Shown here: in pieces, positions 1 through 63,819 of the stretch
Layout: each line of letters starts with the position of its first letter
Position numbering within the stretch: position 1 is the first letter of the stretch
Origin: Macrostomum hystrix
Lineage: Eukaryota > Animalia > Platyhelminthes
Direction of reading: 5' to 3'
DNA: 64,000 nt
Assembly (NCBI GenBank): GCA_950097015.1
Contig: CATNEN010000007.1
Location: 10,354,001 to 10,418,000 of the forward strand
Translations under genes and position numbers: made by a program
The notes under the pieces: model-generated
What the model saw: the letters and a program-made list of their open reading frames with translations, nothing else
What the model was told of the DNA's origin: nothing
Database searches by the model: none

Positions 1-13
1 GCACCTCTGCCAG

Positions 14-24465: not shown

Positions 24466-24654
24466 ACCTCATCCATTGCAGTCAAGGTTTCTAATGCTAA
24501 CTTAAATGACTTCAGTAATGAAAATTTGTAAGATTATTCGCCTGCAGTGATAATTCACTGCACAATGCAATCAATGCAAAAAACACATAACTTTAGTTTC
24601 TATTAAATTATTTATCACTAATTTATCACTAGCCAAAAGCTTCAAACAAGTGAG

Positions 24655-25211: not shown

Positions 25212-25470
25212 CTACTTGCACTGTTTCCACTGGCTGTTGGACGTGCACCTGCCCGAGCAGCAGTCTTCATCGTTGATGCACAGCCGATTGTCGATGGTGC
25301 ACGACTTGCAAGCCGCGGCGCTGCCTACAGTTTGCGAATTTAGCTCCGTAATGAACTTTAAACATTAAGCCGACACTTTTAAGAATAAAATGAATTGCAA
25401 TCAAACAGCCCTCACCAAATAGGATCAGCATTGCCAGCACTGTCAGGAAAAGGAAAAGGAAAAGCTTCAT
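25212..25470 (-). CDS. Secreted knottin/ICK peptide B2, intact, 55 aa
   Basis: Exons 25470-25416 and 25324-25212 (phase 1): MKLFLFLFLTVLAMLILFGSAAACKSCTIDNRLCINDEDCCSGRCTSNSQWKQCK*. Spacing C-6-C-5-CC-3-C-8-C. TATAAA on the minus strand at 25501-25496. Confidence 0.88.
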
Positions 25471-38493: not shown

Positions 38494-41400
38494 TGTGGTG
38501 ACGTGGCTCTGTTTGCGGCTGGCTAAGGCAGGTGTGTTGTGCACCTGCCCGGCACGTATCCAATTTTGGAATGTACGTGTGTTGATGTACGTGCTTTTAA
38601 ACCTTCTATCCAATGTGCATGCGTAGAGTCTGCTATCGATTTTATAAATAAAATAAAATATAAAAGTCGCTGTGTCATCGCGTTTGGTAGTAGAGTTCGT
38701 TCTACAATCTTAAGTGAAGTCTTTACAGTGGCGACGAGAAATGAACCTAGTTGGCTCTATTGAACCCTTTGAAGAGGGGACAGAAAAATGGCAGCAGTAC
38801 CAGGAAAGACTGGAGCAGTTTTTCGAGGCCAATGATATCAAAGATGAGAAAAAGCGCGCCGTTCTCCTCAGTGTCTGCGGCAAGAAGACTTACCAGCTAA
38901 TAGCCAGCCTGCTAGCTCCTGGTACTCCGGCTGCAAGCAGCTATGCAGACATCTGCGAAACGCTGAAGAATCACTTCGACCCCGAGCCACCCGAGATCGT
39001 TCTGCGCTTCCGTTTCTACACCCGAAGTCGCCGTGCCGGCGAGTCAATTGCTGACTTCCTCGCTGACCTTCGCAGACTGGCCAGGGACTGCAACTTTGGC
39101 AGCAGCCTGGACAGCATGCTCAGGGACAGGTTCGTGCTTGGCATCAACGACGACAACATCCAGCGGAGGCTGCTGTCAGAGCGGAAGCTTACGCTCGACA
39201 CCGCACTGTCTCGAGCCCAGGCCGAAGCTTCAGCAGCCGAAGGGAACCTGATGGTGACCAAATCTTCGGCCAGCCAGGAGGCCTTCCAAATCGCCAAGCA
39301 GCCGGTCGCTAAGCGCTGTTTTCGGTGTCTCTCGCAGCGGCACGCGGCTGCCAAGTGCCCATTCGTTGACAAAAAATGCTTCAATTGCTCGAAGCTGGGC
39401 CACGCGGCTGCTGCCTGCAAGTCGCCGGCTGCCACAAATCGTCGGGGCGATCAGGCCGTCAGGGAGGTCGAGCTGGAAGAGGAAGAGACGCATTCACTGC
39501 ACGTAATGGCTGAACGACGGAGAGGGAAGATTCCGCCGATCGAGACAACGGTGCTTATCGATGGCACGCCGGTGCGCATGGAGATTGACACCGGCGCGTC
39601 GGTCTCACTCATGTCGTCGGACACCTTCCGCTCAGAGCTGCGAGGACGGCCCAAGCTTGAGCCCGCCAACGCCCACCTGCGCACGTATTCAGGAGAGCCT
39701 GTTCCGCTGCTCGGCAGAATCATCGTCCAAGTGCGGGCGGCTGGAGCGGCCAAGGAGCTTCCACTGCTTGTCGTCAACGGCTCAGGTTCGAACCTGATCG
39801 GCCGCGACTGGCTTGCTGACGTGCCTCTGGACTGGCGCAGCATCAAGCAGGTGACCAAGGACGGCGAGCACCCGAGAATCCGCGCCCTGCTTGACCAGTA
39901 CGCCGATGTTTTTGAGCCCGGACTCGCCAAGGTGGAGGCCCAGCTCGACAAAGAAATCGAGCAGGGCGTGCTCGTTCCCGTGAACAGCTCGGACTACGCA
40001 TCGCCGATCGTGCCGGTCCTCAAGTCCGACGGCTCGGTGCGCATCTGTGCGGACTTTAAGCAGACGGTCAACATCAACATCGAGCCTGACAAGTACCCGC
40101 TGCCACGCATTGACGAGCTTTTTGCCAAGCTGGCCGGCGGCCAAAAGTTCACCAAGCTCGACTTGTCGCAGGCCTACTCCCAGATGCCGCTTGACGAAGC
40201 AGCCCAGCAACTCTGCACCATCAACACCTCTAAGGGCCTGCTTCGGTATACCCGGCTGCCGTTCGGCGTCGCTCCAGCTGTCGGCATCTTCCAGCGGTAC
40301 ATGGACAGCCTGCTGCAGTCCATCCCGCATGTCGCCTGCTTCATTGATGATCTGATCATTACTGGTGCTGACGACGGAAGCCATTTACGCTCCCTAGAGC
40401 TGGTGCTGCAGCGACTGCAACAGAGCGGTCTGCGCTGCGGCCTCGGCAAGTGCAACTTCATGCAGGAGAGCGTCTGCTACCTAGGCCACAGGATCGACGC
40501 CGCAGGCCTCCATCCGCTTCAGGACAAGGTGCGCGCGATCGTGGACGCTCCACCACCGCGGAATGTGACGCAGCTCCGCAGCTTCCTTGGCATGGTCAAC
40601 TATTATGGCAAGTTCATGCCGAACTTATCTGCCGAGCTGGCATCGCTGCACCGCCTACTAGACCAGGGCGCCGAGTGGCGTTGGGGTGCCCCGCAAGACG
40701 CCGCGTTCAACAAGTGCAAGAAGCTCCTCAGTAAGGCGCCGGTCCTGGTGCATTTTGACGACAGCAAGCCATTGGTCCTGGAGTGCGACGCCTCGCCGTA
40801 CGGCATCGGCGCTGTCATCAGCCACCGGATTAACGGCATCGACCAGCCGATCGCTTTCGCTTCACGCTCGTTGCACGACGCCGAGACAAGGTATTCCCAG
40901 TTGGACAAGGAAGCCCTAGCAATAATCTTCGGCGTAAAACGCTTTCACTCGTACCTGTACGGCCGGAAATTCACACTCATCAGCGACCACAAGCCGCTGC
41001 TGGGGCTGCTGCATGAAGGCAAGCCGATTCCTGCGATGGCATCAGGCAGGATCCAGCGGTGGGCGCTTCTCCTGTCCGCCTACAGTTACACGATGGAGCA
41101 CCGGTCCGGCCGATCGCTGCTGCGAGCGGACACGCTGAGCCGGCTGCCGCTTCCCGAGAGACCGCGGGACGCACCAGTACCAGCAGACGTGGTTCTCGTC
41201 ATGGACATGCTGGACGAAGGACCGGTCACAGCCGGAGACATTCGAGTCTGGACCCGGATGGACCCGGTCCTTTCCAGAGCGCTGCACTTCACCGAATGCG
41301 GCTGCTGGCCGGAGCAGACGAGCCCAGAACTGCAGCCGTATCGATCCCGACGCGACCAGCTCAGCGTGCAGGACGGCTGTCTGCTCTGGGGCACTCGAGT

Positions 41401-42718
41401 CGTGGTGCCGCACGCCGGCCGGTCTGCGCTGCTACAGTGTCTGCACCAAGGACACCAGGGTGCGTCCAGAATGAAGGCGCTCGCTCGAAGTTTCTTTTGG
41501 TGGCCCAAGTTGGATGAGGCGATCGAGCAGCTTGCCAGTGACTGCGCGGACTGTCGAGAGCTGCAGAAGTCACCGGCACCGGTTCCGCTGCACCCATGGG
41601 CGTGGCCGGACAGGCCGTGGTCGCGCCTCCATATTGATTTTGCAGGCCCAGTCGAGGGCAAGATGCTGCTGGTGGTAGTCGATGCCCACTCGAAGTGGAT
41701 GGACGTGCATGTCATGACGTCCACAACTTCGGCGGCGACCATCCAGAGGCTGCGGGAGAGCTTCTGCACTCATGGGCTGCCAGACATCATCGTGACGGAC
41801 AACGGCCCCAACCTGGTCAGCGAGGAGATGGAGAAGTTCCTGCAGCAGAACGGCATCCGGCACGTGCGGACCGCGCCCTACCACCCGGCGTCCAACGGGC
41901 AGGCGGAGCGAGCGGTCCAAACGCTAAAGAAGTCGCTGGCGAAGCAGAAGAGCGGCTCGCTGGAGGGCCGGGTGGCGCGCTTCCTACTGACCTACCGCGT
42001 GACGCCTCACGCCACGACTGGCGCCCCGCCGTGTGAACTGCTGATGGGAAGGCGGCTGCGGTCCCTACTCGATCGAGTGCGGCCGGATCTTCCAGCGAGG
42101 GTGGCTCTCCAGCAAGCGATACAGAAACAGCAACACGACGCCAACGCCCGTGATCGCCACATCGAGGTAGGCGATGCTGTGGTGGCGAGAGATTTCGCGG
42201 CCGATGGCAGATGGAAGCCGGCAGTGGTGACTGCCAGCTCCGGAGCGGCGTCTTTCTCGTGCCAGTTCGACGACGGCCGGCAGGCTCAGCGCCACATCGA
42301 TCAGCTGCGCAAGCCGCTGCCAACCGCGCCAGCCGCTGCGGCCCAGGAGTCGGAAGCCGAGCCTGTCGCGGAACCGGCGGCAGCGGAAACCCAGACATCG
42401 GCTGCGGCAGCTGCGGTCGCCAGCGACACCGCAGACACGGGCGACCCGCCATCTCCCCCCGGTTCCTGTTTTGGTGGGGAGGGATGTGGTGACGTGGCTC
42501 TGTTTGCGGCTGGCTAAGGCAGGTGTGTTGTGCACCTGCCCGGCACGTATCCAATTTTGGAATGTACGTGTGTTGATGTACGTGCTTTTAAACCTTCTAT
42601 CCAATGTGCATGCGTAGAGTCTGCTATCGATTTTATAAATAAAATAAAATATAAAAGTCGCTGTGTCATCGCGTTTGGTAGTAGAGTTCGTTCTACAATC
42701 TTAAGTGAAGTCTTTACA
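38494..42718 (+). mobile_element. Full-length young Ty3/Gypsy LTR retrotransposon (Mag-like)
   Basis: 234-bp TG..CA LTRs at 38494-38727 and 42485-42718 with no difference seen. TSD ATAGT. PBS TGGCGACGAG at 38729. PPT ggtggggaggga before the 3' LTR. Confidence 0.97.
38741..42517 (+). CDS. Gag-Pol polyprotein (2 CCHC knuckles, PR, RT, RNase H, IN)
   Basis: CFRCLSQRHAAAKC and CFNCSKLGHAAAAC; IDTGAS; LPFG..FIDD; CDASPYGIGA; HQGH..CADC; HIDFAGP, TDNGP, NGQAERAV. Confidence 0.95.
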   Translation: MNLVGSIEPFEEGTEKWQQYQERLEQFFEANDIKDEKKRAVLLSVCGKKTYQLIASLLAPGTPAASSYADICETLKNHFDPEPPEIVLRFRFYTRSRRAGESIADFLADLRRLARDCNFGSSLDSMLRDRFVLGINDDNIQRRLLSERKLTLDTALSRAQAEASAAEGNLMVTKSSASQEAFQIAKQPVAKRCFRCLSQRHAAAKCPFVDKKCFNCSKLGHAAAACKSPAATNRRGDQAVREVELEEEETHSLHVMAERRRGKIPPIETTVLIDGTPVRMEIDTGASVSLMSSDTFRSELRGRPKLEPANAHLRTYSGEPVPLLGRIIVQVRAAGAAKELPLLVVNGSGSNLIGRDWLADVPLDWRSIKQVTKDGEHPRIRALLDQYADVFEPGLAKVEAQLDKEIEQGVLVPVNSSDYASPIVPVLKSDGSVRICADFKQTVNINIEPDKYPLPRIDELFAKLAGGQKFTKLDLSQAYSQMPLDEAAQQLCTINTSKGLLRYTRLPFGVAPAVGIFQRYMDSLLQSIPHVACFIDDLIITGADDGSHLRSLELVLQRLQQSGLRCGLGKCNFMQESVCYLGHRIDAAGLHPLQDKVRAIVDAPPPRNVTQLRSFLGMVNYYGKFMPNLSAELASLHRLLDQGAEWRWGAPQDAAFNKCKKLLSKAPVLVHFDDSKPLVLECDASPYGIGAVISHRINGIDQPIAFASRSLHDAETRYSQLDKEALAIIFGVKRFHSYLYGRKFTLISDHKPLLGLLHEGKPIPAMASGRIQRWALLLSAYSYTMEHRSGRSLLRADTLSRLPLPERPRDAPVPADVVLVMDMLDEGPVTAGDIRVWTRMDPVLSRALHFTECGCWPEQTSPELQPYRSRRDQLSVQDGCLLWGTRVVVPHAGRSALLQCLHQGHQGASRMKALARSFFWWPKLDEAIEQLASDCADCRELQKSPAPVPLHPWAWPDRPWSRLHIDFAGPVEGKMLLVVVDAHSKWMDVHVMTSTTSAATIQRLRESFCTHGLPDIIVTDNGPNLVSEEMEKFLQQNGIRHVRTAPYHPASNGQAERAVQTLKKSLAKQKSGSLEGRVARFLLTYRVTPHATTGAPPCELLMGRRLRSLLDRVRPDLPARVALQQAIQKQQHDANARDRHIEVGDAVVARDFAADGRWKPAVVTASSGAASFSCQFDDGRQAQRHIDQLRKPLPTAPAAAAQESEAEPVAEPAAAETQTSAAAAAVASDTADTGDPPSPPGSCFGGEGCGDVALFAAG

Positions 42719-43469
42719 ATAGTTGACAACGTTAGGCAATTAGAAGCCTTGCCAGTGGGCTTGATCTATGTGACAATTAGTCTTAGCTTTCAAATTGAAG
42801 TTAAAGCTGTCATAGCGCGTGACGACAGCGTCGTATTCTGTATTTCTATTTTTAGCTCTTGCCTAATTGGCACTTGTAGCCATGTGTAGCGGTGCAAAAC
42901 TGCTTACTGCTATTGTCTGCTTTCTTTAATATCATGTGTCTAAACTTAGGGCTGTGTCAAAATCTGATAAATCATTTGTTTTACGTTTTCAGTTGTTTAG
43001 AGCTGGAAGGGCACAAAAAGCAAAAGCTAGTATAACTGCAGCTGTTAGAATAAATAGAATCACGTGTTGCCTTGTTGTTTGCTCACCAGCTATTATTGAA
43101 TTCCGTTGCACGTATATCTGCCCTTAAGACCACAAGAGTTAGTAATTACGCTTGTATTCCGTAAAAATTCAACTGTTGATGCTGGGTCAAACCATTACAT
43201 TGCTGGCTATTCTGTTGTTCCTTGTTCAGTGTCTATAGGGGAGGCGAAAGGCATTGTACTAGTAGATCTAAAAAACGAATTTTCTAAATTTTTCAATGAC
43301 AAATTTAGTTCCTACTCAGTGGATTAAACAGCATAAACAAGTTTTAAATTTATCTTTGTAAACAAGCAATTATTATAAAGAGAAAAATTGAGGTCAAGCA
43401 GCAGAGGTAAGGCTAAGAAAGATAAGAGCAGTGTCCTAGTGTAACGCATTTCACAGCGATTGACGGCTC

Positions 43470-46316
43470 ATGGAGAGTTCTCTGTTGCTGCCTGTGTTTG
43501 CTGTTTGCGCTCTGCTATTGGCCCTTGCCGGGATGCTGTTCCACGCACTCCCCAATGCGCGCAGACGAAGGCGCGTCAGCAGCGGAGGGGAGAGCCGATT
43601 CGCGCCGCGATGCAGGACGAGTCATCAGAGTCACGCAGATGAAGCGGCCAGACTAGCAGAGACTGGTCAGTGCGAAGCTATTAAAAAGCTTATTGATGAA
43701 GGAGATGTGGATCCCAATCAAAAGGACCCACGCAAAGGTAAAATGTCCAGTCCAATGCTTGTCACAGCGATTGGAAAAGGGCACGTGAAGATAGCCCAGT
43801 TGCTCTTGGCGCAGCCAGGCATCGACGTCAACCTGATCAGAGCGGACGGTACGACTGCGCTAATCATGGCAGCGAGCCGAGGACATGAAACCATTGTGCA
43901 AAAGCTGCTTGAGCGAAGTGCACTGGACATCAACGCTTTCAACAGCAACAAGTCCACTTCTCTCATCGTCTCGGCTAGGGCGGGCCATGCTATGGTAGTG
44001 AAGAGGCTGATCGATTCTGGAGCAGACAGGCTACACGTACAGTATACTGGGCTATCCGCTCTACACTTTTCTAGCCGTGAGGGGCACTTTGAAATTGTGG
44101 AGTTTATTTTATGCGGAGCCGGTGATGCCACGAAAAAAATGGTAGACGCACAAGACAAGCACGGATTCACGCCATTGATGTATACCTGTCAGCGAGATCA
44201 TTACAAGGTCGCGAGACTGCTCTTAGCGAACACTGAGCAGCTGGACCGCACAGGCAGGCACGGTACCGCTTTGCATGTCGCTGCCACACACAACAGCTGC
44301 AAATCGATGGCAGTTTTGATCGAGTCCGGCAAACTAGACAATCTTTTCAGCCGACGCGACTTCAAGGGCCGCACGGCTCTTCAGTTAGCAAAAATTCACC
44401 ACAGTAAGGATTGCGAGCTGCTGCTTCTTCGAAACTGTCATGCTCAGTCTCAAGATTCAACGTTGAACACTTTCCATCCGAGCCAGAAGCTGAGCGAAGA
44501 AACGGCCCAGCTCGCAACCGAACAATTCTCATTGCAGCTTTTCAACAGGATGCTGGACTGCGGCTTTCACCGTCGACGGGCCGTATTTCAAGCCGGAGCG
44601 GCGGACCTGCTAGCTAAGCTAGGAAACACTTCAGAGCTGCGCGGCAGGTTTGATGAACGGAAGGCTTCCGGAAGCTTCTCTGACGGATGGGGCTGCAGCC
44701 TGCAACGACTGAACGGAAGTTTAGCCTCGAGCTCGGACGTTGACATGAGCGTGCAGAGAAACGACCCTGTACATATTGAGGGCTCATGCAGTGGTGAAGG
44801 TGATTGCCGAGGTGCAGTGACTTACCAGCTGATAAACGGCTTCTTGAGACTGAAGGATGTCTGCGGCGACAAGCCAAGCAAGACCGACCTTACTGTTGGG
44901 GTCCGACCGTCCATGGACTTCTGCTCGTACAGATCTTGCTGTAAGAATCCTCCCGAACTGCAGCAAAGCATTTCAAAGTTTCCAACAGGACGATTTCAGC
45001 TTCCCAAATATCCGAAAATAGAATTTGTTCGCTCTGTTAGGCCAGAGTGCTCGGACCAGATGGAGATGCGAATTAGCTGTACCTCCCTTGAAAAGGAGAT
45101 TCTGAGACAACTGAAAACATGTCAGGGTCAGGTATTTGTTATCATCAAGTATATATTCAAGCATATTATTTCTGCAAGTGGTCTGAAGTCTTATCATTCA
45201 AAGAGTCTTATGTTTTTCCTGCTTTGTGAGATCCCAGACGATTGCTGGAAGAAAGAAAGGCTCGAATGTCTTGTGTCTACTGCCCTGTTGCGCTTTGAAG
45301 AATTCGTCAAAAGCAGCGAGGAGCATGGATCATCCACATGTATGCCGCACTTTTTCATCCCTGATGCCTGGGTGTACTTTAAGTCTGGCGCAAATGTTGA
45401 CAGGTCAGCTGTTATCAGTTGCCTGCAGAGCGCACGCACAAATTTGAGGTCCATTCTAACCAACTACATGGAAAGCCACTTGCAGCCGCTGCGAAAAGGG
45501 CGAAAGGCTCCGTTCGTGTTTTACCCTTTCAAACTTGTTGAGCTTGTGACACCATTTACGAGACCAACCATTCCGCTAACTAACTATTCGACAGTTTACC
45601 CCATGATCTTCAAAATACTGGAGGACATAGGAAATCCTGGCTTCTTCGTCGGAGATTCAGAACAACGGGAAGCGCAGTTCGAAAGCCTGTCTGGAGACAT
45701 TGACTCGTTGCCCAAATGCGCGCAAACTGCTCGCGAAGTGCTAAGAGTCCTCATGTACTTGAAGCTCGGCTGCGAGACCACCGCTTTGCGAGTGCTGACT
45801 GATGCGAAGGGAATCCGAGCCAGACGATGCGTCGACTTCAGCTGTTGGCGGACTCCTGATGATGCCAAGCGCTGCATTCTTGAGCAGCTAGTGAGCAGCA
45901 ACTCAGCGTGGAAGTTCTGCTTTTACTTCAATAGAGACTTGAACTTTCAGTTTCTCCCAGAGCCAATCCGATGCAAATTGGGAGGCCTGGAGGCGTCAAA
46001 CTGCGGCTTCTACCTGCTGCCTGGCTACATTCTGCTCGACTTTACATATTTCGTAAATTTCGACGCGATCCTAAAATCCCTCTGCCTCTGCCTGATTCCC
46101 AGTCGCTGCCCTGATCTCATCTCGCAGTGGTTTCGCGAGCTTGTGGAACTGGAAGACGCTGACGATATTTATGAGCTATTTTTGTTTGCCAAGTTCGCGA
46201 CTGACCCGGAGCAACTTCGCCACTGCCTGCTCAGAATGCAGCAACTGACAGTTACTCTTGATGACGAGTTGGATATGATCGATGAAGTGCAGAAAAAGCT
46301 CGACGGCCTGGAGTAA
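43470..46316 (+). CDS. Intronless 948-aa protein: hydrophobic N-terminal helix + ~7-8 ankyrin repeats + Mab-21/cGAS-like nucleotidyltransferase (candidate cGLR)
   Basis: Ankyrin motifs GTTALIMAASRGH, GLSALHFSSREGH, GFTPLMYTCQRDH, GTALHVAATHN. NTase motif SGSFSDG...SSDVDM. Mab-21 C-lobe MRISCTSLEKEIL, IIKYIFK, LKSYHSKSLMFFL..W, CMPHFFIP. Confidence 0.88.
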   Translation: MESSLLLPVFAVCALLLALAGMLFHALPNARRRRRVSSGGESRFAPRCRTSHQSHADEAARLAETGQCEAIKKLIDEGDVDPNQKDPRKGKMSSPMLVTAIGKGHVKIAQLLLAQPGIDVNLIRADGTTALIMAASRGHETIVQKLLERSALDINAFNSNKSTSLIVSARAGHAMVVKRLIDSGADRLHVQYTGLSALHFSSREGHFEIVEFILCGAGDATKKMVDAQDKHGFTPLMYTCQRDHYKVARLLLANTEQLDRTGRHGTALHVAATHNSCKSMAVLIESGKLDNLFSRRDFKGRTALQLAKIHHSKDCELLLLRNCHAQSQDSTLNTFHPSQKLSEETAQLATEQFSLQLFNRMLDCGFHRRRAVFQAGAADLLAKLGNTSELRGRFDERKASGSFSDGWGCSLQRLNGSLASSSDVDMSVQRNDPVHIEGSCSGEGDCRGAVTYQLINGFLRLKDVCGDKPSKTDLTVGVRPSMDFCSYRSCCKNPPELQQSISKFPTGRFQLPKYPKIEFVRSVRPECSDQMEMRISCTSLEKEILRQLKTCQGQVFVIIKYIFKHIISASGLKSYHSKSLMFFLLCEIPDDCWKKERLECLVSTALLRFEEFVKSSEEHGSSTCMPHFFIPDAWVYFKSGANVDRSAVISCLQSARTNLRSILTNYMESHLQPLRKGRKAPFVFYPFKLVELVTPFTRPTIPLTNYSTVYPMIFKILEDIGNPGFFVGDSEQREAQFESLSGDIDSLPKCAQTAREVLRVLMYLKLGCETTALRVLTDAKGIRARRCVDFSCWRTPDDAKRCILEQLVSSNSAWKFCFYFNRDLNFQFLPEPIRCKLGGLEASNCGFYLLPGYILLDFTYFVNFDAILKSLCLCLIPSRCPDLISQWFRELVELEDADDIYELFLFAKFATDPEQLRHCLLRMQQLTVTLDDELDMIDEVQKKLDGLE

Positions 46317-47470
46317 TGAATGCAATGTTTTCATGCTATCTTACAGGAATAACACTACTTACAGCTAGTATGATGAGAATATAATTTGAGCTGCTAACTT
46401 TTGCATGTGTTATTCCTGTGCTTATGGGAGCTGGGATCCAGTGCATAAAGCTAGCACTGGATTCGAGACTAATTTTCTCACAGCTGACTCGCTTTTTGCA
46501 TCGCATTGTCTTGTCAATTCTCATTGTTGGATTATTGGCTGATTATTATTGTCCGCTTACTCGCACTCAATTGAATCTTCTGAGCCGATTTTGAGCTCGC
46601 TCCTTTGTTACGGTCTGTCTGTGCTCTGGTCTGTGTTTAAAATAATAAAACAAAATTTTTTTCTGTATATTCATTTCAAAATAATTAATTTCATGTCCTT
46701 TCAATTTCGAGCCAATCACTCTGCTTGTAAATGTACTTGTTGATAGCCAAGCTTCCTCAAGCAAAGCTGTGCAAATAGTGTAATATATTAGTGTAGTTTA
46801 AAAGCTGTACATTAGACAAAGGAAGCCGGTTTAGTTGACGCAGAATGGAGATGCCGAACGAGGATTACTAATTAAAAGTACACCCGGGCTTATAAACAAA
46901 AAAAAACTGAAAGTATTATTCACTATGAAATTATTGCTTTGATTTAAAGTTAGCTTGAGTCTTGGAAAATTTCACATGCAGTTACTGGAAAAATGAGCGG
47001 TGTTGGGCCAGCCGAGTTACAAATATACTGGTAGAAGCGTCAAATGAGTCGAGCAAAGCATTGCCAGCAATGTACAGTTGAGTTCATGAAAATCCTAGCT
47101 AGGACCCAATCAGTCGAACTTTCTACATGAAAGCTACGAAGAGGACTGAAGAAAATTTATTTACTTCATTACTATGTAGTGTCTCTGCTCTGTGCGTGTG
47201 CGGGCCTGGGGTGAGAGGCAGTCCAGCTGCCGCCCCCTTCCCCGCTTGGCTTGCGGCTGTGTGTGAGGTGCCTGTGTTCAGGGGTCCAGATGGCGCGATG
47301 GGCGACTCCCGCCTAGTTCGCCGGCCTAGGGGCATGCCGTTCCTGTGTTTGTGCGTCAAGTGCCCCAGGCCCCCCTGCAATTTAAAAAAAATATGTGGTG
47401 TCTCTACTTTATATCTGTCTGACAATCGAGCATTACAGCAATAATAGTAGTATTAATTTATGACACCTCA

Positions 47471-47603: not shown

Positions 47604-48507
47604 TTCAAATATGAGAAATATACAATAAGAACCTTCTTCCCCATCGCCGTCTCACACGGACTCCACTCCAGCATAAGATAACTGTGTCGTAGCAAATATA
47701 CAATAAGAACCTTCTTCCCCATCGCCCTGTCTCACACGGACTCCACTCCAGCATAAGATAACTGTGTCGTAGCAAATATACAATAAGATATCGAATTGCC
47801 TGACAAAGCGGCAAGATGCAAATTAAAAAAAAGCAATACTGTGATTATAAATGCCATAAATGTATTTTCTATACTACTTACGGATGAAAACAAGTAGTAT
47901 ATATAGTATGCGCATGGATTGCATGATTCTCAAATACTCAACGTACATTTATCACTAACAACTTACACTCTTTCGGAATTTGAACGGGCGGTGCTATTTT
48001 TATTTGAACTACACTTAAATAAGAAGTGGACCTCGTTTTTAACTTATTTTTGGGCACCTACTGCACAATCTGTTCTCATAGGTAAGTCACTCAGTATATG
48101 TTTCAACTCTGCATGGATTGCAGATTTCTTGTACATACGTGGATCATGCTCAGGCTAAAGACTTTCTGAGTGTTTAAATGTAGAGTAGGAGTGATATCGA
48201 AGGGTATCGAACACAGACGTCAAATAAGGCAAATAAGGATTTAAAATAAAAAACTACAAAAAGCAATGACGCGTGGTCCAATGCTTCCTTGGCTCTGGTC
48301 TGAAGTGCAGGTCAGTCAGTTCTGTTCCTGTCAGGTTGCAATTCATTTATTTGCATGTCATTTTGGAAGTCATTGAAACTTTCATCAATTTGGAAGCCTT
48401 GATTATGCTTGCAAAGTCCTGATCAAAGGGGTATAAAGATAGGAAATGCGGTCTAGAGCATAGACTAATTATCTGTAGGGCTATTGTTAGGTTGGAGGCG
48501 GAGCAGC

Positions 48508-50322
48508 TTAGAAGTGGCGCGACAGCGAGAGCAGCTGCTGCTCCATGAACTCGGGGGCCCAGCCAGTCAGCAGCAGCACTGGCCGGATGGTCCACGGGGT
48601 GGCCAGCTCGCGCAGCCGGCCCACCGGCATGGCAGCAATGTCCCTGGCGGTGTCCTCCGGCGAGGCGAAGGGCAGGCTCACCTTGTAGTACTGGCTGCTC
48701 GGCCGAGCGGTGAATGGGAGAGCAAAATTAATGGGCGAAATGACTTATAAAACGGAGCTTTTGAACTGCTGAGAAGATGAGATTAGATGTGGGACAAGCT
48801 GTTGAGAAGATGAGATTAGATGTGGGACAAGCTGTTGAGAAGATGAGATTAGATGTGGGACAAGCTGTTGAGAAGATGAGATTAGATGTGGGACAAGCTG
48901 TTGAGAAGATGAGATAAGATGTGGGACAAGCTGTTGAGAAGATGAGATTAGATGTGGGACAAGCTGTTGAGAAGATGAGATTAGATGTTGGACAAGCTGT
49001 TGAGAAGATGAGATTAGATGTGGGACAAGCTGCTGAGAAGATGAGATTAGATGTGGGACAAGCTGTTGAGAAGATGAGATTAGATGTAGGACAAGCTGCT
49101 GAGAAGATGAGATTAGATGTGGGACAAGCTGTTGAGAAGATGAGATTAGATGTGGGACAAGCTGTTGAGAAGATGAGATTAGATGTGGGACAAGCTGTTG
49201 AGAAGATATGATTAGATGTTGGACAAGCTGTTGAGAAGATGAGATTAGATGTGGGACAAGCTGCTCAGCTCACGGAATGGCCCGTCGCGCGCTCTCGGTG
49301 CCGATGCTGCCCAGCACGGCCAGGCCGGCGTGCACAGCCGAGCCGTTCATCGCCAGCTCCTGGCGCAGCGCCGAGAAGAAGCCCTCCAGAGCGCGCTTGG
49401 AGGCGCAGTACTCGTAGCAGTAGGGAATGGGCAGGCGGGCTGCGGCCGAGGACACCAGCACGAGGCTGCCGGCGGACTTCTCCAGGTGCGGCAGGGCGGC
49501 TCTGGCTGCCTCCGCGTAGCTTAAGTAGTTCGTCTGCATGGCGGCACGCTGGGTGACAGCCGAGTCTGGGGCCGCCCGCGGCAGCGTGGCAAACTCCGAC
49601 GGGCTGATGTGATTGACAGCCACAATGTCCAGACTGCCGTCCATCGCTGCGGCGGCGGCGGTCACGAGGCGGGCGGCTTCGCCAGGCTGCGACATGTCGC
49701 CGGCGATCGGGTGCACGCTGGCTGCGCCGCGGTGGCGGCACTCGGCGGCCACCTGCATGGAGGAGGCAGGGGGAAAATCAACAAGAGAGAAGAGCAGGGG
49801 GTGGGAAGAGCAAGGGGTGGGAAGAGCAAGGGGTGGGAAGAGCAAGGGTGGGAAGAGCAAGGGGTGGGAAGAGCAAGGGGTGGGAAGAGCAAGGGGTGGG
49901 AAGAGCAAGGGGTGGGAAGAGCAAGGGTGGGAAGAGCAAGGGGTGGGAAGAGCAAGGGGTGGGAAGAGCAAGGGGTGGGAAGAGCAAGGGGTGGGAAGAG
50001 CAAGGGGTGGGAAGAGCAAGGGTGGGAAGAGCAAGGGGTGGGAAAAGCAAGGCATGAGAAATCCCTTGTCCCGCACCTTCTGCAGCGAGTCCAGACTCCT
50101 GGCGTGGATGGTCACGTGAGCGCCCAGCTCGGAGTAGACGTACGCCAGGGCCTCACCGATGCCCCTGCTGGAGCCGGTGACCAGAACCCGCTTGCCAGCA
50201 GAGTTGTCCCGGCTGGCCCGGTACCAGCTGCCGGCCCACAGGTCGAACAGGAGGCTGCGGGCCAGGCCGAATGCCAGCAGGCAGAGCGGCAGGCCCAGGA
50301 TGGCCTTGGCTAGCAGGTGCAT
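48508..50322 (-). CDS. Short-chain dehydrogenase, 11-beta-hydroxysteroid dehydrogenase 1-like, 303 aa
   Basis: Exons 50322-50077, 49752-49274, 48694-48508. Motifs VLVTGSSRGIG, LDIVAVNHI, NYLSY, SSAAA, YCASKRALEGFFSALRQEL. Confidence 0.88.
48768..49266. repeat. 33-bp minisatellite, ~15 units (SDR intron 2)
   Basis: gctgttgagaagatgagattagatgtgggacaa. Confidence 0.95.
49788..50052. repeat. 15/16-bp G-rich minisatellite (SDR intron 1)
   Basis: gggaagagcaaggggt. Confidence 0.95.
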
Positions 50323-50579
50323 CGCGGCTGAAACTGGGCGGTTTCGGGGGCAGCTGATTCTACCATAGACAGGAGAGCAAAGTGCACAGCGGTTGTTTTT
50401 AGTCACAATGAGTTAGCAATTTGCGTTAAGAACGTGAATGCATGTATAACTAGTTATTAGATCTTCCTGTTTTCCCCGAGAAAAAATATCCTGCCCTCTT
50501 CCGACCTCTACTTACTATCACCTCTAGTTCTACCCCATTAGATCTCAAATCCTCTCAACTCTACCTGCCTTGATCTCCA

Positions 50580-50695
50580 AAACTCAACTCGCTTCGATCC
50601 AAATCCCCTAAACTCAACTCGCTTCGATCCAAATACCCTAAACTCAACTCGCTTCGATCCCAAATCCCCTAAACTCAACACGCTTCGATCTCAAA
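50580..50695. repeat. 30-bp repeat, ~4 units
   Basis: aactcaactcgcttcgatccaaatccccta. Confidence 0.85.
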
Positions 50696-51257
50696 TCATG
50701 TTATATTTTCTCCCTCAGATCTCAAATTTCCTCACCTCTAGTCTCATGGATCTCAGTCTCAATCCCAAAATTCAATTTTAGACAATTAAATCCAAATCTT
50801 TCAGGAATTAACAGTGAAAGCACTGAAGCACTTTCTCAAGTCTCATTTCTGGTCACAAAACACTTTCAACAAAAGGCACCTTCAGACAGCACGAAAAACC
50901 ACTGCTATGCCAACAGCAAGCAGAGTTCAAAACTGTATTTGAGACATGGCTAGACCAGTCTAAAAAAACAAGAAAAAATGAAGCAAAGCAGAGCGCTGTC
51001 TAACAAAAGGAGCCCAGATAGATAATCAAAGCAGACTTGCCTGCTACAGTCATAGAAAACAGAATGGTCAGCTAGCACAGCCAAGATACATCTCTTCCAA
51101 AAAGAATGCTATGAAAAGAGAGAAAGGTAAAATTGTTTATCACAGCTACAACTTAAGCACAGGACAGGTTAAAGTCTAATTTAAAAGAACTTCAAAGCAA
51201 AAACTTAGCTAAATAGCAAGCAAACAGTTGCAAGTATGCAGCGGATAATATAAGGGA

Positions 51258-51680
51258 AAGTGTGGGGAAATCTGTGTGGGATGGGTGTGGGTAAATCTGT
51301 GTGGGATGGGTGTGGGGAAATCTGTGTGGGATGGGTGTGGGGAAATCTGTGTGGGATGGGTGTGGGGAAATCTGTGTAGAATGTGTGTGGGGAAATCTGT
51401 GTGGGATGGGTGTGGGGAAATCTGTGTGGGATGGGTGTGGGGAAATCTGTGTGGGATGGGTGTGGGGAAATCTGTGTGGGATGGGTGTGGGGAAATCTGT
51501 GTGGGATGGGTGTGGGGAAATCTGTGTGGGATGGGTGTGGGGAAATCTGTGTGGGATGGATTTGGGGAAATCTGTGTGGGATGGGTGTGGGGAAATCTGT
51601 GTGGGATGGGTGTGGGGAAATCTGTGTGGGATGGGTGTGGGGAAATCTGTGTGGGATGCGTGTGGGGAAATCTGTGTGCG
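51258..51680. repeat. 25-bp G-rich minisatellite, ~17 units
   Basis: tgtggggaaatctgtgtgggatggg. Confidence 0.95.
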
Positions 51681-51778
51681 GTGGGTGTGAAAAGTGAGCC
51701 TCTAAAAACAGATTTCGCAGCAACATCGTCAATAGTTCGAGTCATTAACAGTGCCGAGTCTCCAGGACTACTGAAGGC

Positions 51779-54700
51779 TCAGAAGAACGGAGTCACGCCC
51801 TCTGGCCACTCTACCTGAGCGCCGGGCCAGCGAGTCTGAATGAGGCGCTCCAGCAGGTGGCCCCGCTGGTGCTGCTGGTGCTGCAGCTGCTCATCGTCTT
51901 CCTCAGCAGCTGGATCTTCGGGCGAGGCGGTGGAAATTGCCGCCGATATCGGCAGCGGCTGCGACTGACGTCGCCGGCGCTGCAGCTCCTCCTGCTGCTG
52001 CTCCTGCAGCATCTGGCGGTAGCGGCGTCGGGCCGACTTACGTGCGGTGGCCACCCGGGCGAGGCGGGTGTCCACGGACAGGCGGCAGGGCCGGAACTGG
52101 CTGGCCAGGCCGGTGTAAAAGTGCAGGTGGAAGGCGGTCTCGGAGCGCCAGTGCTCCATGAGGCGCGAGTGCGTGCTGAACAGGAGGCCGGCCTGGCCGC
52201 GGTGCCGCACCAGCCAGATTGGGAAGCGGGGCGAGCGCAGCATGGAGCCCACGGCTGGCCGCGCCTGCAGCCGAGATTCCGCAGTGGGATTTGGATAAGG
52301 GTTTGAGGATTCTGCTGAAGCTTCTAGTGAGGCAGTGGGGATTCTAGTGAGGCAGTGGGAATTCTAATGAGGCAGTGGGGATTCTAGTGAGGCAGTGGGG
52401 ATTCTAGTGAGGCAGTGGGGATTCTAGTGAGGCAGTGGGGATTCTAGTGAGGCAATGGTAATTCTAATGAGGCAATGGGGATTCTAGTGAGGGAGTGGGG
52501 ATTCTAGTTTGGCAGTGGGGATTCTAGTTTGGCAGTGGGGATTCTAGTGAGGCAGTGGGAATTCTAATGAGGCAATGGGGATTCTAGTGAGGGAGTGGGG
52601 ATTCTAGTTTGGCAGTGGGGATTCTAGTGATGCAGTGGGGATTCAAGGATTTTTCACCTGTAGCAGTCCAACGTCAGGCCGCTCAGCCAGTCCTGTGCGC
52701 GGAGCCGGCAGCGGGGCTCCTGTATCCTGGTCAGCCAGTTGGCACCCATTGTGCAGGTAACGGCATGCGCTGCCAGTCAGCAGCAGGGCGAAGGCGGGCG
52801 TGGCCAGCTCCTCGTTATCGTTCAGCAGCGACGTCTTCGACGCGCCGTCCCAGTCGGCCTGAATCCGGAGGAAGCCGCGCGACAGGACCAGGCAGTAGAG
52901 GAACAGCAGGCAGCCGGGGTGCGACGGCGAGACGAACTGCGGGAGCGGCGACAGGGATTCCCCAATATGCTATTTCTAACAACAACTAAAAGCGCCCGCA
53001 GGCAAGCATCAGGAATAACATAATGCAGATATGAATGAGTATTCATAGATGATTTGCTGTGCATGAGTGTGCAGCATTAAAGTGTGATGACAAACCAAAT
53101 ATAACCAATTGAAAATCTGGAAAGCAGATAGCAGAAAGTCAGATGTGCAACAGAAATAAAAAAATCTGTGACTCCTGAAACTCTTAGAGAAAAAAGTGAG
53201 GTGCTTGAAGGAGCAGAGATAGGCAAGTGAAATGAGCGGCTTGTGTTACCTTCCCTGCCAGACGGACGGCTGAAAGGACATTCATTTTATTAATTAATAA
53301 ACTCTGCGAACAGACTGTCACTGGAATGGGGTGGCCGTGAACAGACAGGAATTGGGTGGCTGTCACTCTGTGAACAGACTGTCACTGGAATGGGGTGGCC
53401 GTGAACAGACAGGAATTGGGTGGCTGTCACACTGTGAACAGACAGGGATTGGGTGGCTGTCACACTGTGAACAGACAGGGATAGGGTGGCTGTCACACTG
53501 TGAACAGACAGGAATTGGGTGGCTGTCACACTGTGAACAGACAGGAATTGGGTGGCTGTCACACTGTGAACAGACAGGGATAGGGTGGCTGTCACACTGT
53601 GAACAGACAGGAATTGGGTGGCTGTCACACTGTGAACAGACAGGAATTGGGTGGCTGTCACACTGTGAACAGACAGGAATTGGGTAGCTGTCACACTGTG
53701 AACAGACAGGAATTGGGTAGCTGTCACACTGTGAACAGACAGGGATAGGGTGGCTGTCACACTGTGAACAGACAGGAATTGGGTAGCTGTCACACTGTGA
53801 ACAGACAGGAATTGGGTAGCTGTCACACTGTGAACAGACAGGAATTGGGTAGCTGTCACACTGTGAACAGACAGGAATTGGGTGGCTGTCACACTGTGAA
53901 CAGACAGGAATTGGGTAGCTGTCACACTGTGAACAGACAGGAATTGGGTAGCTGTCACACTGTGAACAGACAGGAATTGGGTAGCTGTCACACTGTGAAC
54001 AGACAGGAATTGGGTAGCTGTCACACTGTGAGCAGCTCACAAAGTTCTCCAGCCGCCGGAGTCCGTCGAGCAGTTCGGGCAGGGAGGTGAAGTAGAACAG
54101 ATGCAGCCGCTCCGTGAACCCGTCCACCCGGTACTGGTCGTCGCTTGTCACGTGACACTCGCCAGACGGCGCAGCCAGAGCTGCCCGGCGCCCTTCGCCG
54201 GCGCGCCAGAGAATGTCAGCCAGAGCCTCGAGCAGCAGAGCCGGCCGGCGGGCCGACTCCAGGGCCAGCAGGTGGGTGCGGAACCGCTCCGGACAGTCCG
54301 GCGGGAACAGCAGGCGGCGGAGCAGCTGGGCCTGGACGCACAGCACGAGTGCCTGGGTGGCGTCCCGGTGCGCCAGCAGGCCATAGGGGTGCGGCCCTGC
54401 CGCCTCCTGGAAGGCGAAGTGGGCGCGGTGCCACTCCTTGCAGAATGGATGCACGGCGTTGCCGAAGGTGACCTGGCGAAGGCGCAAGGCTTCGCTGCGG
54501 CTGATTGGTGCCCCGCCGAGCATCCGGTGGAAGCTGGCGACGCCGGAGCGCTGAATGGGCGGCAGCGGCGCCGGCACGGTGTAGGCCGGCCGCAGGCCAA
54601 GCACGATCTTCCGGCGCGGCTGGGCCGGCTCGCCCTCCGCCTCCGGTGGCATCGGCAGGGTGTCCTCGCGTTTCAGCGCCACCCTGTCCGACTCTGACAC

Positions 54701-55319
54701 CGCCGGCTGCAGGGGCCGAAGACCACTTTTCTGCCTGACAGGTTTGGGCGGCGGAATGAGAGCACTCAGTCCCAACTAGCCAGTTCCAGCTAGCCAGTCC
54801 TAATTAGCCAGTCCCAACTAGCCAGTCCCAACTAGCCAGTCCCAACTAGCCAATCACATCTAGCAAATCACAACTAGCCATTCCCAACTAGCCAGTCCCA
54901 GCTAGCCAATCACAACTAGCCAGTCCCAGATAGCCAATCACAACTAGCCAGTCCCAGCTAGCCAATCACAACTAGCCAGTCCCAGCTAGCCAGTCCCAAC
55001 TAGCTAATCCATTTAGCCAATCACAACTAGCCATTCCCAACTAGGCAGTCCCAACAAGCCAGTCCTGACAAACAGAAGTAAGTTTGAGAATATCATAAAT
55101 AAACCAGATTGATCCCATATCCCACCTGCGCAGAAAGCTGGCCTCCTTAAATGTCGGGTTCTCCACAAAGCTGAGCAATCGGTGCAGCCCGTTTGAGTCC
55201 ACCTCGAGGCGCTTGCGGCTGTTCAGCGACTCCCAGAGGCGGGCCCGGTCACGCTGGAAGGCGTCCTCGCTGTCCCAGCCGTCTGGCCTTTGCTGCTGCT
55301 GCTGCTGCTGCTGCTGCAT
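51779..55319 (-). CDS. MINDY-4/FAM188B-family protein, MINDY4B-like (catalytically inactive type)
   Basis: Exons 55319-55126, 54734-54041, 52936-52658, 52264-51779. Motifs YGLLAHRDATQALVLCVQA (no GGPCG), GCLLFLYCLVLSRG, LLLTGSACRYLHNG, VGSMLRSPRFPIW, LERLIQTRWPGAQVEW. Confidence 0.82.
52322..52645. repeat. 20-bp minisatellite
   Basis: attctagtgaggcagtgggg. Confidence 0.95.
53307..54030. repeat. 33-bp minisatellite
   Basis: gaacagacaggaattgggtggctgtcacactgt. Confidence 0.95.
54767..55062. repeat. 14-bp minisatellite
   Basis: agccagtcccaact. Confidence 0.9.
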
Positions 55320-55682
55320 CTCAGCTGTTGAACTGAAAATTAAAGCCGAAAAGTGCTCAGAAATTTTTTACCGCACATTCCTCAATAACATTCACACTAG
55401 ATGGCCTAAGACAGCCATCTACGGTCGTAACTTAAATACAAAAGGCTTCCTGTTTGACCAGAAAAAAATAAAAGAAGCACAGAGAGAGAGAGCAAATTTC
55501 AATTAGAAAGTACGAGCTACATGTGTAATTATTAAAAAAATCATATAAAATAAAAAAACGTGTCATACCAATAATTAGCATTGCAAACACACGAGAGTAA
55601 CTGCGGCTGCTGACAACTTATCGCTCAATGCTACCACTATCTGTCTTAACTTTCCTTTGAATTTGACCCTACCGCTCTCAAG

Positions 55683-56695: not shown

Positions 56696-56880
56696 AATGA
56701 CTTCAGAAACATTTTTCCAATTAATCAGAAAAAAGGTATGAATAGAATTTTACTAATAAACTATTGCTAGTACCATAAACTAAATCACCTGCACCAAATA
56801 ATCCGTGGACTCATTAAGGTAGGCATTTAGTACAATCAAGCTTGAACAGTCTCCGGGTGCTATGCGGCCCCTTCAAGAGT

Positions 56881-59570: not shown

Positions 59571-60019
59571 TGTGTGCTGAAGTGGGAAACGGACAACAAT
59601 GCTCAGTTTCATGCCTGGATACTGTAAGTAGGCTGTCTCAAAGTTAACTCACTGCATAACTCACTGCATAATAAATATTAATATGCCTTTATAAAGCCTG
59701 TTTTAATTTCCCAAAACGCTAGTAACTCACATGAGTATTATCGCTGTTACAATTTAAACAAAAAAATAACTAAAAAATAACGAAATACTGGACACAGTTA
59801 ACTGGGCACGTATTTATATTCACAAAAGTGTAACTATTATAGGCACAATAGAATTATTGCTAATCAAAGTAGCATTTGAAAGTAACAATGGCGTTAATCG
59901 GGAAAGTGAATATTGTGTGCACATTTTCTGACTACAAACCGAATATCGCTACTTACAGTAGGACAATTTGCGCTTTAGCTTAATAAATTTACATAAGGGG
60001 CATGAGTTTCCAATGCAGA

Positions 60020-63000: not shown

Positions 63001-63475
63001 AGCCTGCTTGGCGGCGGCCCAGCCGTTGGCAAACTCAGCGAAGCTGGCAGGGGCCAGCACTCTGTGCAGCCGCTCCGCCAGCTGCTCCACCTGCGCAGGT
63101 GTGGGGCGAGCAGTAATTATCCCCAGGATGTGAGGAGGATTTTAGCGCCTAAAGCCATTTGGATGCGGCTTGACTCAAACCCACCTCATGCCGGCACCAG
63201 CGCAGTAGGGCGCTGTTGGCCTCGCGGCCGAAGCCGGCCAGGCCGAACTCTTTTAGCGACTCGACCAGCGTCTTGAAGAAGGCGGCCGCGATGCGCTTAG
63301 CGTAGAGAGCCTGCGAGTCCTCCAGCTTGACGTTGTCAACCAGGTGCCGCCGGATGCTGGAGCGCAGGTGCAGAAAGTACTCTGCAGCTTCGGCCGCTTT
63401 GCCTAGCCGGACCAGCTCGCGCACCGCCTTGCGGGAGGACTTCGGGCCGCCGCGCAGGGACACGTGAGGCGGGAT
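60020..63475 (-). CDS. EXOC8: Exocyst complex component 8 (Exo84), 3' portion
   Basis: Phase-compatible exons 63475-63185, 63090-62766, 61836-61643, 60190-60020. SLRGGPKSSRKAVRELVRLGKAAEAAEYFL..SALLRWC matches the recalled EXOC8 helical region. The 5' end is beyond the window. Confidence 0.85.
61078..61365. repeat. 15-bp minisatellite
   Basis: ctgtgagactggcac. Confidence 0.95.
61903..62710. repeat. 20-bp minisatellite filling an EXOC8 intron
   Basis: atgcgacccttccactctcc and variants. Confidence 0.96.
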
Positions 63476-63819
63476 CTGCAGCTCCCTGGAGGCAAGGGGT
63501 GGCAGTGCGCCGGCTATCCACGAGTATTCCTAGGCGATAATTTGTTTGTTGCTCCCTACACTACTACAGGGAAATTTTTTAACTGGGCGCCTAGTTTTTA
63601 CAATTGGCCAACTGGGGAAAGCTTTAACAGATTTGAGACTCGGCCAACTAAGATAAGAATGCTATTTATAACTGAGGGATATACCTGGTTTATTTTATTT
63701 TCCTCGCTATGCAGTGAGGGAAGTTTTTACTAAACTAGCAATTGCACAAGTTGTGATTTACTATACTCGCATATGTAGGAAACCTAAGAAGCTAGAAGGA
63801 ATTAAAAAGAATCGGCTGT

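What the first reader, a model, noticed from the sequence alone, without database searches (positions are those of the whole stretch)
43470..46316. Membrane-anchored ankyrin-repeat cGAS-like receptor candidate
Seen: an N-terminal hydrophobic helix followed by RRRRR (signal-anchor-like, C-terminus cytosolic by the positive-inside rule), ~7-8 ankyrin repeats, and a Mab-21/cGAS fold. The fold has GS…DVD with a long 20-residue spacer, a candidate third Asp (SMDF), KSYHSK and PHFF, followed by a ~250-aa helical tail. It has no introns, whereas every host gene nearby is spliced. Established: cGLRs synthesise cyclic dinucleotides in animal innate immunity, and ankyrin fusions are known in some invertebrates. 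Inference: a membrane-tethered sensor whose ankyrins may detect a protein rather than nucleic acid, probably retroposed or recently expanded.
Basis: partly seen in the sequence, partly recalled or inferred. Interest (0 to 1): 0.8.

Follow-up and report, generated by a model that had tools for sequence, protein, structure and literature searches.

The report
Membrane-anchored flatworm ankyrin cGAS-like enzyme
This expressed, intron-free gene, likely from a Macrostomum flatworm, joins ankyrin repeats to a cGAS-like enzyme fold with its three catalytic aspartates in place; that family is already catalogued, but this copy also has a predicted membrane anchor that would likely tether a still untested sensor to an organelle surface.

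Summary
Window 43470-46316 (+) encodes a 948-aa protein. Residues 5-27 are hydrophobic and followed by R31-R35. Then come about 8 ankyrin repeats, a cGAS/Mab-21 fold (residues 345-670; AlphaFold pLDDT 83; Z about 14 to cGAS, MAB21L1, MB21D2) with G401-S402/D423/D425/D483, and a conserved 280-aa helical tail. RNA-derived contigs from two studies cover the ORF unspliced, hydrophobic codons included.

It belongs to a large Macrostomum ankyrin-cGLR expansion. Li et al. 2023 already list 10 M. lignano members (8 with ankyrins) and screened 5 without ankyrins; none is among their 15 selected active enzymes. So ankyrin plus cGLR is known.

The new part is the N-terminal segment: 0 of 144 homolog entries has one as hydrophobic. 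It rests on hydropathy in one sequence. A cleaved signal peptide or a soluble Met22 isoform is not excluded. I found no sign of retroposition or recent duplication. Activity, ligand and STING are untested.

Verdict: new variant of a known kind, interest 0.4.

The parts
43421..46680 (+). Transcribed span covered by unspliced RNA-derived contigs (outer limits over three runs; not a mapped start or end)
   Evidence: X4, X5, X8; RNA nature of those runs shown by spliced joints
43470..46316 (+). Single-exon ORF, 948 aa (P0001)
43482..43550 (+). Hydrophobic segment, residues 5-27; predicted signal anchor (rival: cleaved signal peptide)
43533..43535 (+). Met22, a possible second start that would drop most of the hydrophobic segment
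   Evidence: second ATG of the transcript, in frame
43560..43574 (+). R31-R35 basic cluster
43644..44459 (+). About 8 ankyrin repeats (residues about 59-330; first one degenerate)
44502..45479 (+). cGAS/Mab-21 nucleotidyltransferase core plus helix bundle (residues 345-670)
44670..44744 (+). G401-S402 and D423-x-D425 (first two catalytic aspartates)
44772..44942 (+). Family-conserved H435-x4-C440-x5-C446 ... C491; candidate metal site (inferred)
44916..44918 (+). D483, third catalytic aspartate (M-D-F)
45186..45356 (+). KSYHSK (573-578) to PHFF (626-629) motifs of the helix bundle
45480..46313 (+). Conserved, acidic, mostly helical C-terminal tail (residues 671-948)
46644..46649 (+). AATAAA, likely poly(A) signal; RNA contigs end at 46613, 46641 and 46680

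Best explanation
This is a transcribed, single-exon member of the Macrostomum ankyrin-cGLR family; it is predicted to be held on the cytosolic face of an internal membrane by an N-terminal anchor and would likely make a cyclic nucleotide second messenger when its ankyrin repeats bind a trigger.

Shown: the ORF, its expression, the ankyrin repeats, the cGAS fold, the three aspartates and family membership.

Inferred, step 1: residues 5-27 insert N-out/C-cytosol because five arginines follow and the N-terminus is acidic (anchor real, about 0.65; ER versus mitochondrial outer membrane not resolved).

Inferred, step 2: D423/D425/D483 bind Mg2+ and cyclise two NTPs as in cGAS (active enzyme, about 0.6).

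Inferred, step 3: the enzyme is off at rest and is switched on through the variable-length ankyrin array, probably by a protein, with the acidic tail packed on the core (protein trigger about 0.5, nucleic acid about 0.35).

Inferred, step 4: the product acts on STING or on an unknown receptor.
For: Fold: AlphaFold model pLDDT 83.3, pTM 0.87. The top Foldseek rows are MAB21L1, cGAS and Cv-cGLR1, E 3e-7 to 2e-6. VIA-align gives Z 14.4, rmsd 3.7, 269 aligned to human cGAS 6ct9 over its whole catalytic domain.

Triad: D423, D425 and D483 are each kept in 35 of 39 aligned relatives, and G-S in 36 of 39. In the model, GS lies at a strand-helix junction, D423/D425 on one strand and D483 on another.

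Family: 55 of 55 clusters are M. lignano, 46 with ankyrin Pfam hits. P0001 falls inside that clade against 17 outside cGLR-like sequences (FastTree support 100). P0056 and P0019 carry the locus names of Li et al. Table S1 entries.

Anchor: KD19 2.69 versus a maximum of 1.88 among 144 homolog entries. It is covered by RNA contigs of two studies. A transmembrane anchor on this fold has a precedent in MiD51 (PMC3926961, passages).

Trigger: core pI ranges 5.4-9.9 across 36 paralogues, so a basic nucleic-acid surface is not a family constant. Li et al. propose non-nucleic-acid ligands for some cGLRs (section 6).
Against: The anchor rests on hydropathy in one sequence. No dedicated topology or signal-peptide predictor was available, and no orthologue was found to test conservation. 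A18, A20 and G21 fit signal-peptidase sites, and Met22 could start a soluble form.

Five M. lignano family members screened by Li et al. (samples 89-93, ankyrins left off or absent) are not among the 15 enzymes marked active; the raw screen figure could not be read.

The core of this protein is basic (pI 8.5-8.65), at the level Li et al. associate with nucleic-acid sensors.

P0001 keeps only 83 of 121 family-conserved columns and has S400 where 36 of 39 relatives have V.

The planarian Schmidtea lacks STING (PMC13563047, passages), and Li et al. Table S5 has no Macrostomum row.
Confidence: 0.42

Rival explanations
1. It is an ordinary soluble ankyrin-cGLR. The hydrophobic N-terminus is bypassed (start at Met22), cleaved, or is a recent neutral extension, and the enzyme works in the cytosol or nucleus like its paralogues.
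For: 0 of 144 homolog entries has an N-terminal KD19 of 2.0 or more. Met1 has only a moderate context (C at -3) and Met22 has G at -3. P-N-A-R5-V resembles a nuclear localisation signal (recalled). Possible peptidase sites at A18, A20 and G21.
Against: Met1 is the first ATG in the RNA contigs and has G at +4. The segment is 23 residues long with a strong downstream positive charge. 0 of 5000 shuffles put such a segment at the N-terminus. Several paralogues also have moderately hydrophobic or amphipathic N-terminal helices, which suggests N-terminal targeting is used in the family.
Confidence: 0.25
2. It works as a scaffold rather than a cyclase. The nucleotidyltransferase fold binds nucleotides or partners on a membrane, as MiD51 recruits Drp1 or as shrimp Mab21 proteins activate IKK-epsilon directly, and the ankyrins recruit a kinase or other effector.
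For: No family member has shown activity in the tables read. MiD51 is a membrane-anchored, catalytically dead cGAS-fold protein. Shrimp Mab21 proteins make no cGAMP and act on IKK-epsilon (PMC12928593, abstract). STING is missing in Schmidtea.
Against: All three aspartates are kept in about 90% of relatives that are only about 30% identical to P0001. MiD51 has lost them.
Confidence: 0.18
3. It is a membrane-tethered but conventional nucleic-acid sensor. dsRNA or dsDNA binds the basic core and switches on synthesis, while the ankyrins only position or recruit.
For: Core pI 8.5-8.65. Nine of the 15 enzymes studied by Li et al. were activated by dsRNA or dsDNA (section 6).
Against: Ankyrin-free M. 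lignano constructs screened with pooled nucleic acids were not selected as active. Paralogue core pI varies widely.
Confidence: 0.12
4. It is secreted or lumenal: a cleaved signal peptide followed by a furin-type polybasic site sends the ankyrins and enzyme out of the cytosol.
For: A-L-A at residues 18-20 fits the (-3,-1) rule. RRRR matches a furin consensus (recalled).
Against: Ankyrin repeats and NTP-dependent cyclases are cytosolic by established knowledge. The cysteines are shared with paralogues that have no signal. The charge distribution favours C-terminus in the cytosol.
Confidence: 0.03

Closest known systems
Macrostomum lignano ankyrin-cGLRs in Li et al. 2023 (PMC9980059, Tables S1-S3; e.g. 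PAA65033 = P0056, PAA72873 = P0019)
   Same: Ankyrin array plus cGLR core plus long tail. Same GS-x-x-[DE]-G-W and D-x-D, third Asp, R-x-S, K-x-Y-H-x-K and H-F-F motifs. 34% identity to P0056 over the core, E 9e-40. Same clade.
   Different: P0001 has a strongly hydrophobic N-terminal segment plus R5 that none of 144 homolog entries matches. It lies on a long branch with no close relative among the M. lignano entries found.
Animal cGLRs with shown activity (human cGAS, oyster Cv-cGLR1, coral Sp-cGLR1)
   Same: Same fold (Z 13.5-14.4) and catalytic triad spacing (20 and 55 residues).
   Different: It adds an anchor, ankyrins and a 280-aa tail. By my reading of the sequence there is no vertebrate-type zinc-thumb insertion, but there is a family-specific H-x4-C-x-C...C motif. 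Ligand and product are unknown.
MiD49/MiD51 (PMC3926961)
   Same: cGAS-like fold behind an N-terminal transmembrane anchor.
   Different: MiD51 has lost the catalytic acids and has no ankyrins; it recruits Drp1 to mitochondria. P0001 keeps the triad.
MAB21L1/2 and MB21D2
   Same: Best structural scores, tied with cGAS (Z 14.4-14.7).
   Different: 12% identity. M. lignano has a separate MAB21L-type gene (PAA76228) that lacks the family motifs.

Membership tests
cGLR (Li et al. 2023 criteria) | Catalytic core GS-X(8-20)-[DE]h[DE]h-X(50-90)-h[DE]h | tested here: met
   G401-S402, X20, D423-V-D425-M, X55, M-D483-F; each Asp is kept in 35 of 39 relatives
cGLR (Li et al. 2023 criteria) | h[QT] directly before GS, as the motif is written | tested here: inconclusive
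   P0001 has A-S-G-S, so the literal pattern fails. It also fails for catalogued M. lignano members (I-V-G-S) and for the active Cg-cGLR1 and Cv-cGLR1, which have K-S-G-S, so the letter is not applied strictly in the source
cGLR (Li et al. 2023 criteria) | Homology across both the NTase core and the C-terminal helix bundle | tested here: met
   Model residues 9-321 (protein 353-665) align to human cGAS 161-521; Pfam Mab-21_C weak hit; ESM Atlas top hit 0.96 to a Mab-21 cluster
cGLR (Li et al. 2023 criteria) | AlphaFold structural homology to known cGLRs | tested here: met
   pLDDT 83.3, pTM 0.87; Foldseek E 3e-7; Z 14.4, rmsd 3.7, 269 aligned
cGLR (functional sense) | Ligand-activated synthesis of a cyclic dinucleotide | not testable with these tools
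   Five relatives screened by Li et al. are not among the 15 marked active
cGLR (functional sense) | Signals to STING in the same genome | not testable with these tools
   No genome is held for this window; no Macrostomum row in Table S5
Macrostomum ankyrin-cGLR expansion | Ankyrin array, family motifs and conserved tail; groups with the M. lignano members | tested here: met
   a profile built without P0001 scores it 247.6 bits versus 42-71 for 17 outside sequences
MiD49/MiD51 | N-terminal transmembrane anchor | tested here: inconclusive
   Hydropathy only
MiD49/MiD51 | Loss of the catalytic acids | tested here: not met
   Triad intact; MiD51 keeps one Asp
MAB21L1/2 developmental proteins | Short stand-alone, highly conserved Mab-21 protein | tested here: not met
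   948-aa multidomain protein, 12-14% identity to MAB21L1; a distinct MAB21L-type gene exists in M. lignano

The most novel reading that the evidence does not exclude
Macrostomum has rebuilt cGAS-like enzymes into a large NLR-like repertoire: variable ankyrin arrays detect proteins, and different N-terminal targeting peptides (amphipathic helices in several paralogues, a true signal anchor here) post them to different membranes. This copy would be a catalytically competent, membrane-integrated cGLR, signalling through a nucleotide messenger in a phylum where other lineages have lost cGAS and STING, possibly to a receptor other than STING.
Probability: 0.2. Interest if true: 0.75.

Novelty: new variant of a known kind. 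Interest (0 to 1): 0.4.

Why it matters
The enzymes studied in depth by Li et al. are activated by dsRNA or dsDNA or are active without added ligand; what ankyrin-fused cGLRs sense is open. A membrane-anchored member with an intact triad would join two things so far seen apart: the anchor of dead MiD49/51 and the active site of cGAS. It would point to compartment-specific sensing.

Macrostomum has at least 36 distinct gene names in this family against 10 catalogued, and RNAi is practical in it (recalled). That makes the ligand and the downstream receptor testable in a phylum whose other studied members lack cGAS and STING. If the anchor is not real, the gene is simply one more member of a catalogued family.

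Tried and rejected
Searches that gave nothing useful:
- Single-sequence AlphaFold gave an unusable model (pLDDT 39.9).
- phmmer of the C-terminal part against PDB sequences found 0 hits. The 4-sequence profile gave only weak cGAS/cGLR1 hits (E 0.005-0.02). Profiles A3 and A4 were swamped by ankyrin hits.
- The word-index search with alignment A2 found 0 of 7202 candidates, a sensitivity miss given.

Retroposition: no poly-A tract at the RNA end (the only A-run is at 46898) and no flanking direct repeat longer than 8 nt. Rejected as unsupported, not disproved.

Recent duplication: DNA run X1 covers 42748-47149 with one contig at depth 76.9, like neighbouring unique DNA (72-101). Rejected for copies of 90% identity or more. 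X1 may be the source of the window.

Capture by the upstream Gypsy element: the ORF lies outside its LTRs.

Horizontal or viral origin: the best viral fold hit is weak (E 7e-3) and the protein groups with M. lignano sequences. Low GC3 (0.57 versus 0.80-0.93 in nine neighbouring host exons) is noted but unexplained.

Tail fold: not tested on its own.

No RNA holder was listed as such; the RNA nature of X4, X5 and X8 was shown by laying them.

STING could not be sought (no genome).

No paper on a membrane-anchored active cGLR or on Macrostomum cGLR function turned up; the library lacks most subscription papers.
Full report
THE GENE. Window 43470-46316 (+) is a 948-codon ORF with an in-frame stop 9 nt upstream. 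No whole genome is held. The host is not given. I infer a Macrostomum-type flatworm because all named strong homologs are from M. lignano. It is probably not the sequenced M. lignano itself, since the exact protein is not in the collection and the best identity is in the 30s of percent.

EXPRESSION AND STRUCTURE OF THE TRANSCRIPT. Eight runs from two studies hold the stretch, none on record as RNA. I laid 4 of the 8. X4, X5 and X8 cover only exons of the alpha-galactosidase neighbour and skip both of its introns at CT..AC ends, while X1 runs through them. So X4, X5 and X8 are RNA-derived and X1 is DNA. On the target, X5 gives one contig 43426-46613, X8 one contig 43421-46641, and X4 three overlapping pieces 43439-46680, with no joints. 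The gene is therefore transcribed, unspliced across the ORF, and the RNA includes the codons of the hydrophobic segment. Contigs cannot show the true start. An AATAAA lies at 46644. Differences in X5 and X8 within the ORF are 3 missense, 2 silent and one in-frame 3-nt insertion, with no stop or frameshift.

N-TERMINUS. Residues 5-27 are uncharged and hydrophobic (best 19-mer KD 2.69), preceded by E2 and followed by R31-R35. 23 of 5000 shuffles reach that hydropathy anywhere and 0 of 5000 at the N-terminus. By the charge-difference rule (established knowledge) this favours an anchor with the C-terminus in the cytosol. Against it: A18, A20 and G21 fit signal-peptidase sites, and Met22 is a possible second start. 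No dedicated predictor was run. Among 144 stored homolog entries (88 begin with Met; many are partial or allelic models, and some are not Macrostomum), none has an N-terminal KD19 of 2.0 or more; the maximum is 1.88. Several M. lignano members begin with a moderately hydrophobic or amphipathic helix (P0002, P0003, P0011, P0017, P0019, P0026, P0028).

ANKYRINS. Pfam Ank_2 E 3e-35. Seven repeats start at about 94-300, plus a degenerate first one from about 59. Paralogues vary widely in array length.

ENZYME FOLD. Sequence alone is weak: Pfam Mab-21_C E 1e-3, 0 PDB hits by phmmer, cGAS and cGLR1 at E 0.005-0.02 with a 4-sequence profile. The ESM Atlas put residues 345-700 next to mollusc and cnidarian Mab-21 clusters (0.96). 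I aligned residues 345-948 with 39 of the 60 homolog entries then held, leaving out tandem-domain, fragmentary and duplicate ones. AlphaFold gave pLDDT 83.3 and pTM 0.87. The Foldseek rows listed are all MAB21L1, cGAS or Cv-cGLR1 (E 3e-7 to 2e-6). VIA-align gives Z 14.7 (MAB21L1), 14.6 (MB21D2), 14.4 (human cGAS, rmsd 3.7, 269 aligned) and 13.5 (Sp-cGLR1) over protein residues about 345-670. G401-S402 are kept in 36 of 39 relatives and D423, D425 and D483 in 35 of 39 each; K560, K564, Y575, K578, H627 and F629 are kept in 39 of 39. In the model the aspartates lie on the expected strands; a residue-level superposition was not available. P0001 keeps 83 of 121 family-conserved columns. H435, C440, C446 and C491 are kept in 31, 35, 33 and 36 of 39, a candidate metal site peculiar to the family (inference). 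The 280-aa tail is conserved, mostly helical and acidic (pI 5.0). The high pTM suggests it packs on the core. Its fold was not tested alone.

FAMILY. A search with a relative's core found 55 clusters among 7995 candidates scored, all M. lignano, 46 with ankyrin Pfam hits. These mix two annotations and overcount loci. Distinct BOX15 gene names across number 36. A full HMMER scan with P0001's core found 109 representatives, 73 at E 1e-10 or better. 10 of 10 strong hits looked up were M. lignano; of 10 weak hits, 1 was the clam Mercenaria and 9 were unnamed. In a FastTree of 45 cores, P0001 sits with 27 family rows against 17 outside rows (support 100; species was checked for only some of those rows). 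It is a long branch, and its exact place is unsure.

ORIGIN. I found no poly-A remnant or convincing target-site repeat and single-copy depth in the DNA run, so neither retroposition nor recent duplication is supported for this gene. GC3 is 0.57 against 0.80-0.93 in nine neighbouring host exons, unexplained. A Gypsy element with identical 234-nt LTRs ends 700 nt upstream, but the gene is outside it.

WHAT IS KNOWN. For Li et al. 2023 (PMC9980059) I read passages, sections 5 and 6, and rows of Tables S1, S2, S3 and S5; the supplementary figure PDF with the raw screen was too large to read and may bear on activity. The paper defines cGLRs and notes ankyrin fusions. Table S1 lists 11 M. lignano proteins: one MAB21L-type and ten of this family, eight with ankyrin-type N-termini by my reading of the rows, four of which I checked in Table S2. 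Two of them are P0056 and P0019 by locus name. Five members were screened as samples 89-93, with constructs starting at or near the core. None carries one of the 15 'active' notes. Table S5 has no Macrostomum row, and a search of Table S2 for 'transmembrane' found nothing. MiD51 is a cGAS-fold protein with an N-terminal anchor but without catalytic acids (PMC3926961, passages). Schmidtea lacks cGAS and STING homologs (PMC13563047, passages). Shrimp Mab21 proteins activate IKK-epsilon without making cGAMP (PMC12928593, abstract). PMC10732462 and PMC2794190 (passages) added nothing on ankyrins or Macrostomum. Searches showed no paper on an anchored active cGLR. Earlier scan notes report ankyrin-cGLRs in other animals as already catalogued; none concerns this gene.

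MECHANISM. The most likely reading (0.42) is an anchored, ankyrin-gated nucleotidyltransferase on the cytosolic face of an internal membrane. The ORF, expression, ankyrins, fold, triad and family are shown. The anchor, catalysis, trigger and receptor are inferred. The evidence on the trigger is mixed: this core is basic (pI 8.5), as in nucleic-acid sensors, but 36 paralogue cores range from 5.4 to 9.9, and ankyrin-free relatives were not picked as active with pooled nucleic acids. Rivals are a soluble form (0.25), a non-catalytic scaffold (0.18), an anchored nucleic-acid sensor (0.12) and a secreted form (0.03).

VERDICT. The feature is real and was correctly read. It is a member of a catalogued family, with one apparently new part, the predicted anchor, which rests on a single sequence. 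New variant of a known kind; interest 0.4.

Noticed in passing
window 38494-42718 (+): Gypsy-type LTR retrotransposon with 100% identical 234-nt LTRs and one open 1258-aa gag-protease-RT-RNaseH-integrase ORF, so a very recent insertion. It ends about 700 nt upstream of the cGLR transcript. The bases flanking the two LTRs do not form an obvious target-site duplication.
   Followed up: partly
window 11939-20418: 8.5-kb tandem array of a 30-nt unit (about 283 copies, 91% matches) with long open frames on both strands; a satellite or a repetitive coding exon.
   Followed up: no
window 11135-11293 (-) and 25215-25364 (-): Two related short cysteine-rich, knottin-like reading frames inside a duplicated block (repeats at 9118-11122 recur at 22221-25176). 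One hits Pfam UPF0506 weakly (E 0.002).
   Followed up: partly
M. lignano entries P0002, P0003, P0011, P0017, P0019, P0026, P0028, P0098 and Li et al. Table S1 rows: Family members begin with varied possible targeting peptides: amphipathic helices, Met-Gly starts that could be myristoylated (PAA58690, PAA68676) and basic presequence-like starts (PAA86972, PAA68216). The myristoylation and presequence readings are recalled patterns.
   Followed up: partly
P0010, P0011, P0012, P0013: M. lignano gene models with two cGLR domains in tandem; they may be real fusions or merged neighbouring genes.
   Followed up: no
window 1-4500 (+), 48290-55330 (-), 56700-59650 (-), 62760-63530 (-): Host neighbours: TRPM-like channel, short-chain dehydrogenase, MINDY-3/4 deubiquitinase, alpha-galactosidase and an Exo84-like gene. 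Many of their introns hold minisatellite arrays.
   Followed up: partly
window 43404-43457: A donor-like AG/GTAAGG and an acceptor-like TTTCACAG lie just upstream of the ATG. The RNA contigs start between them and run through the acceptor unspliced; minor splicing or trans-splicing there is not excluded.
   Followed up: partly
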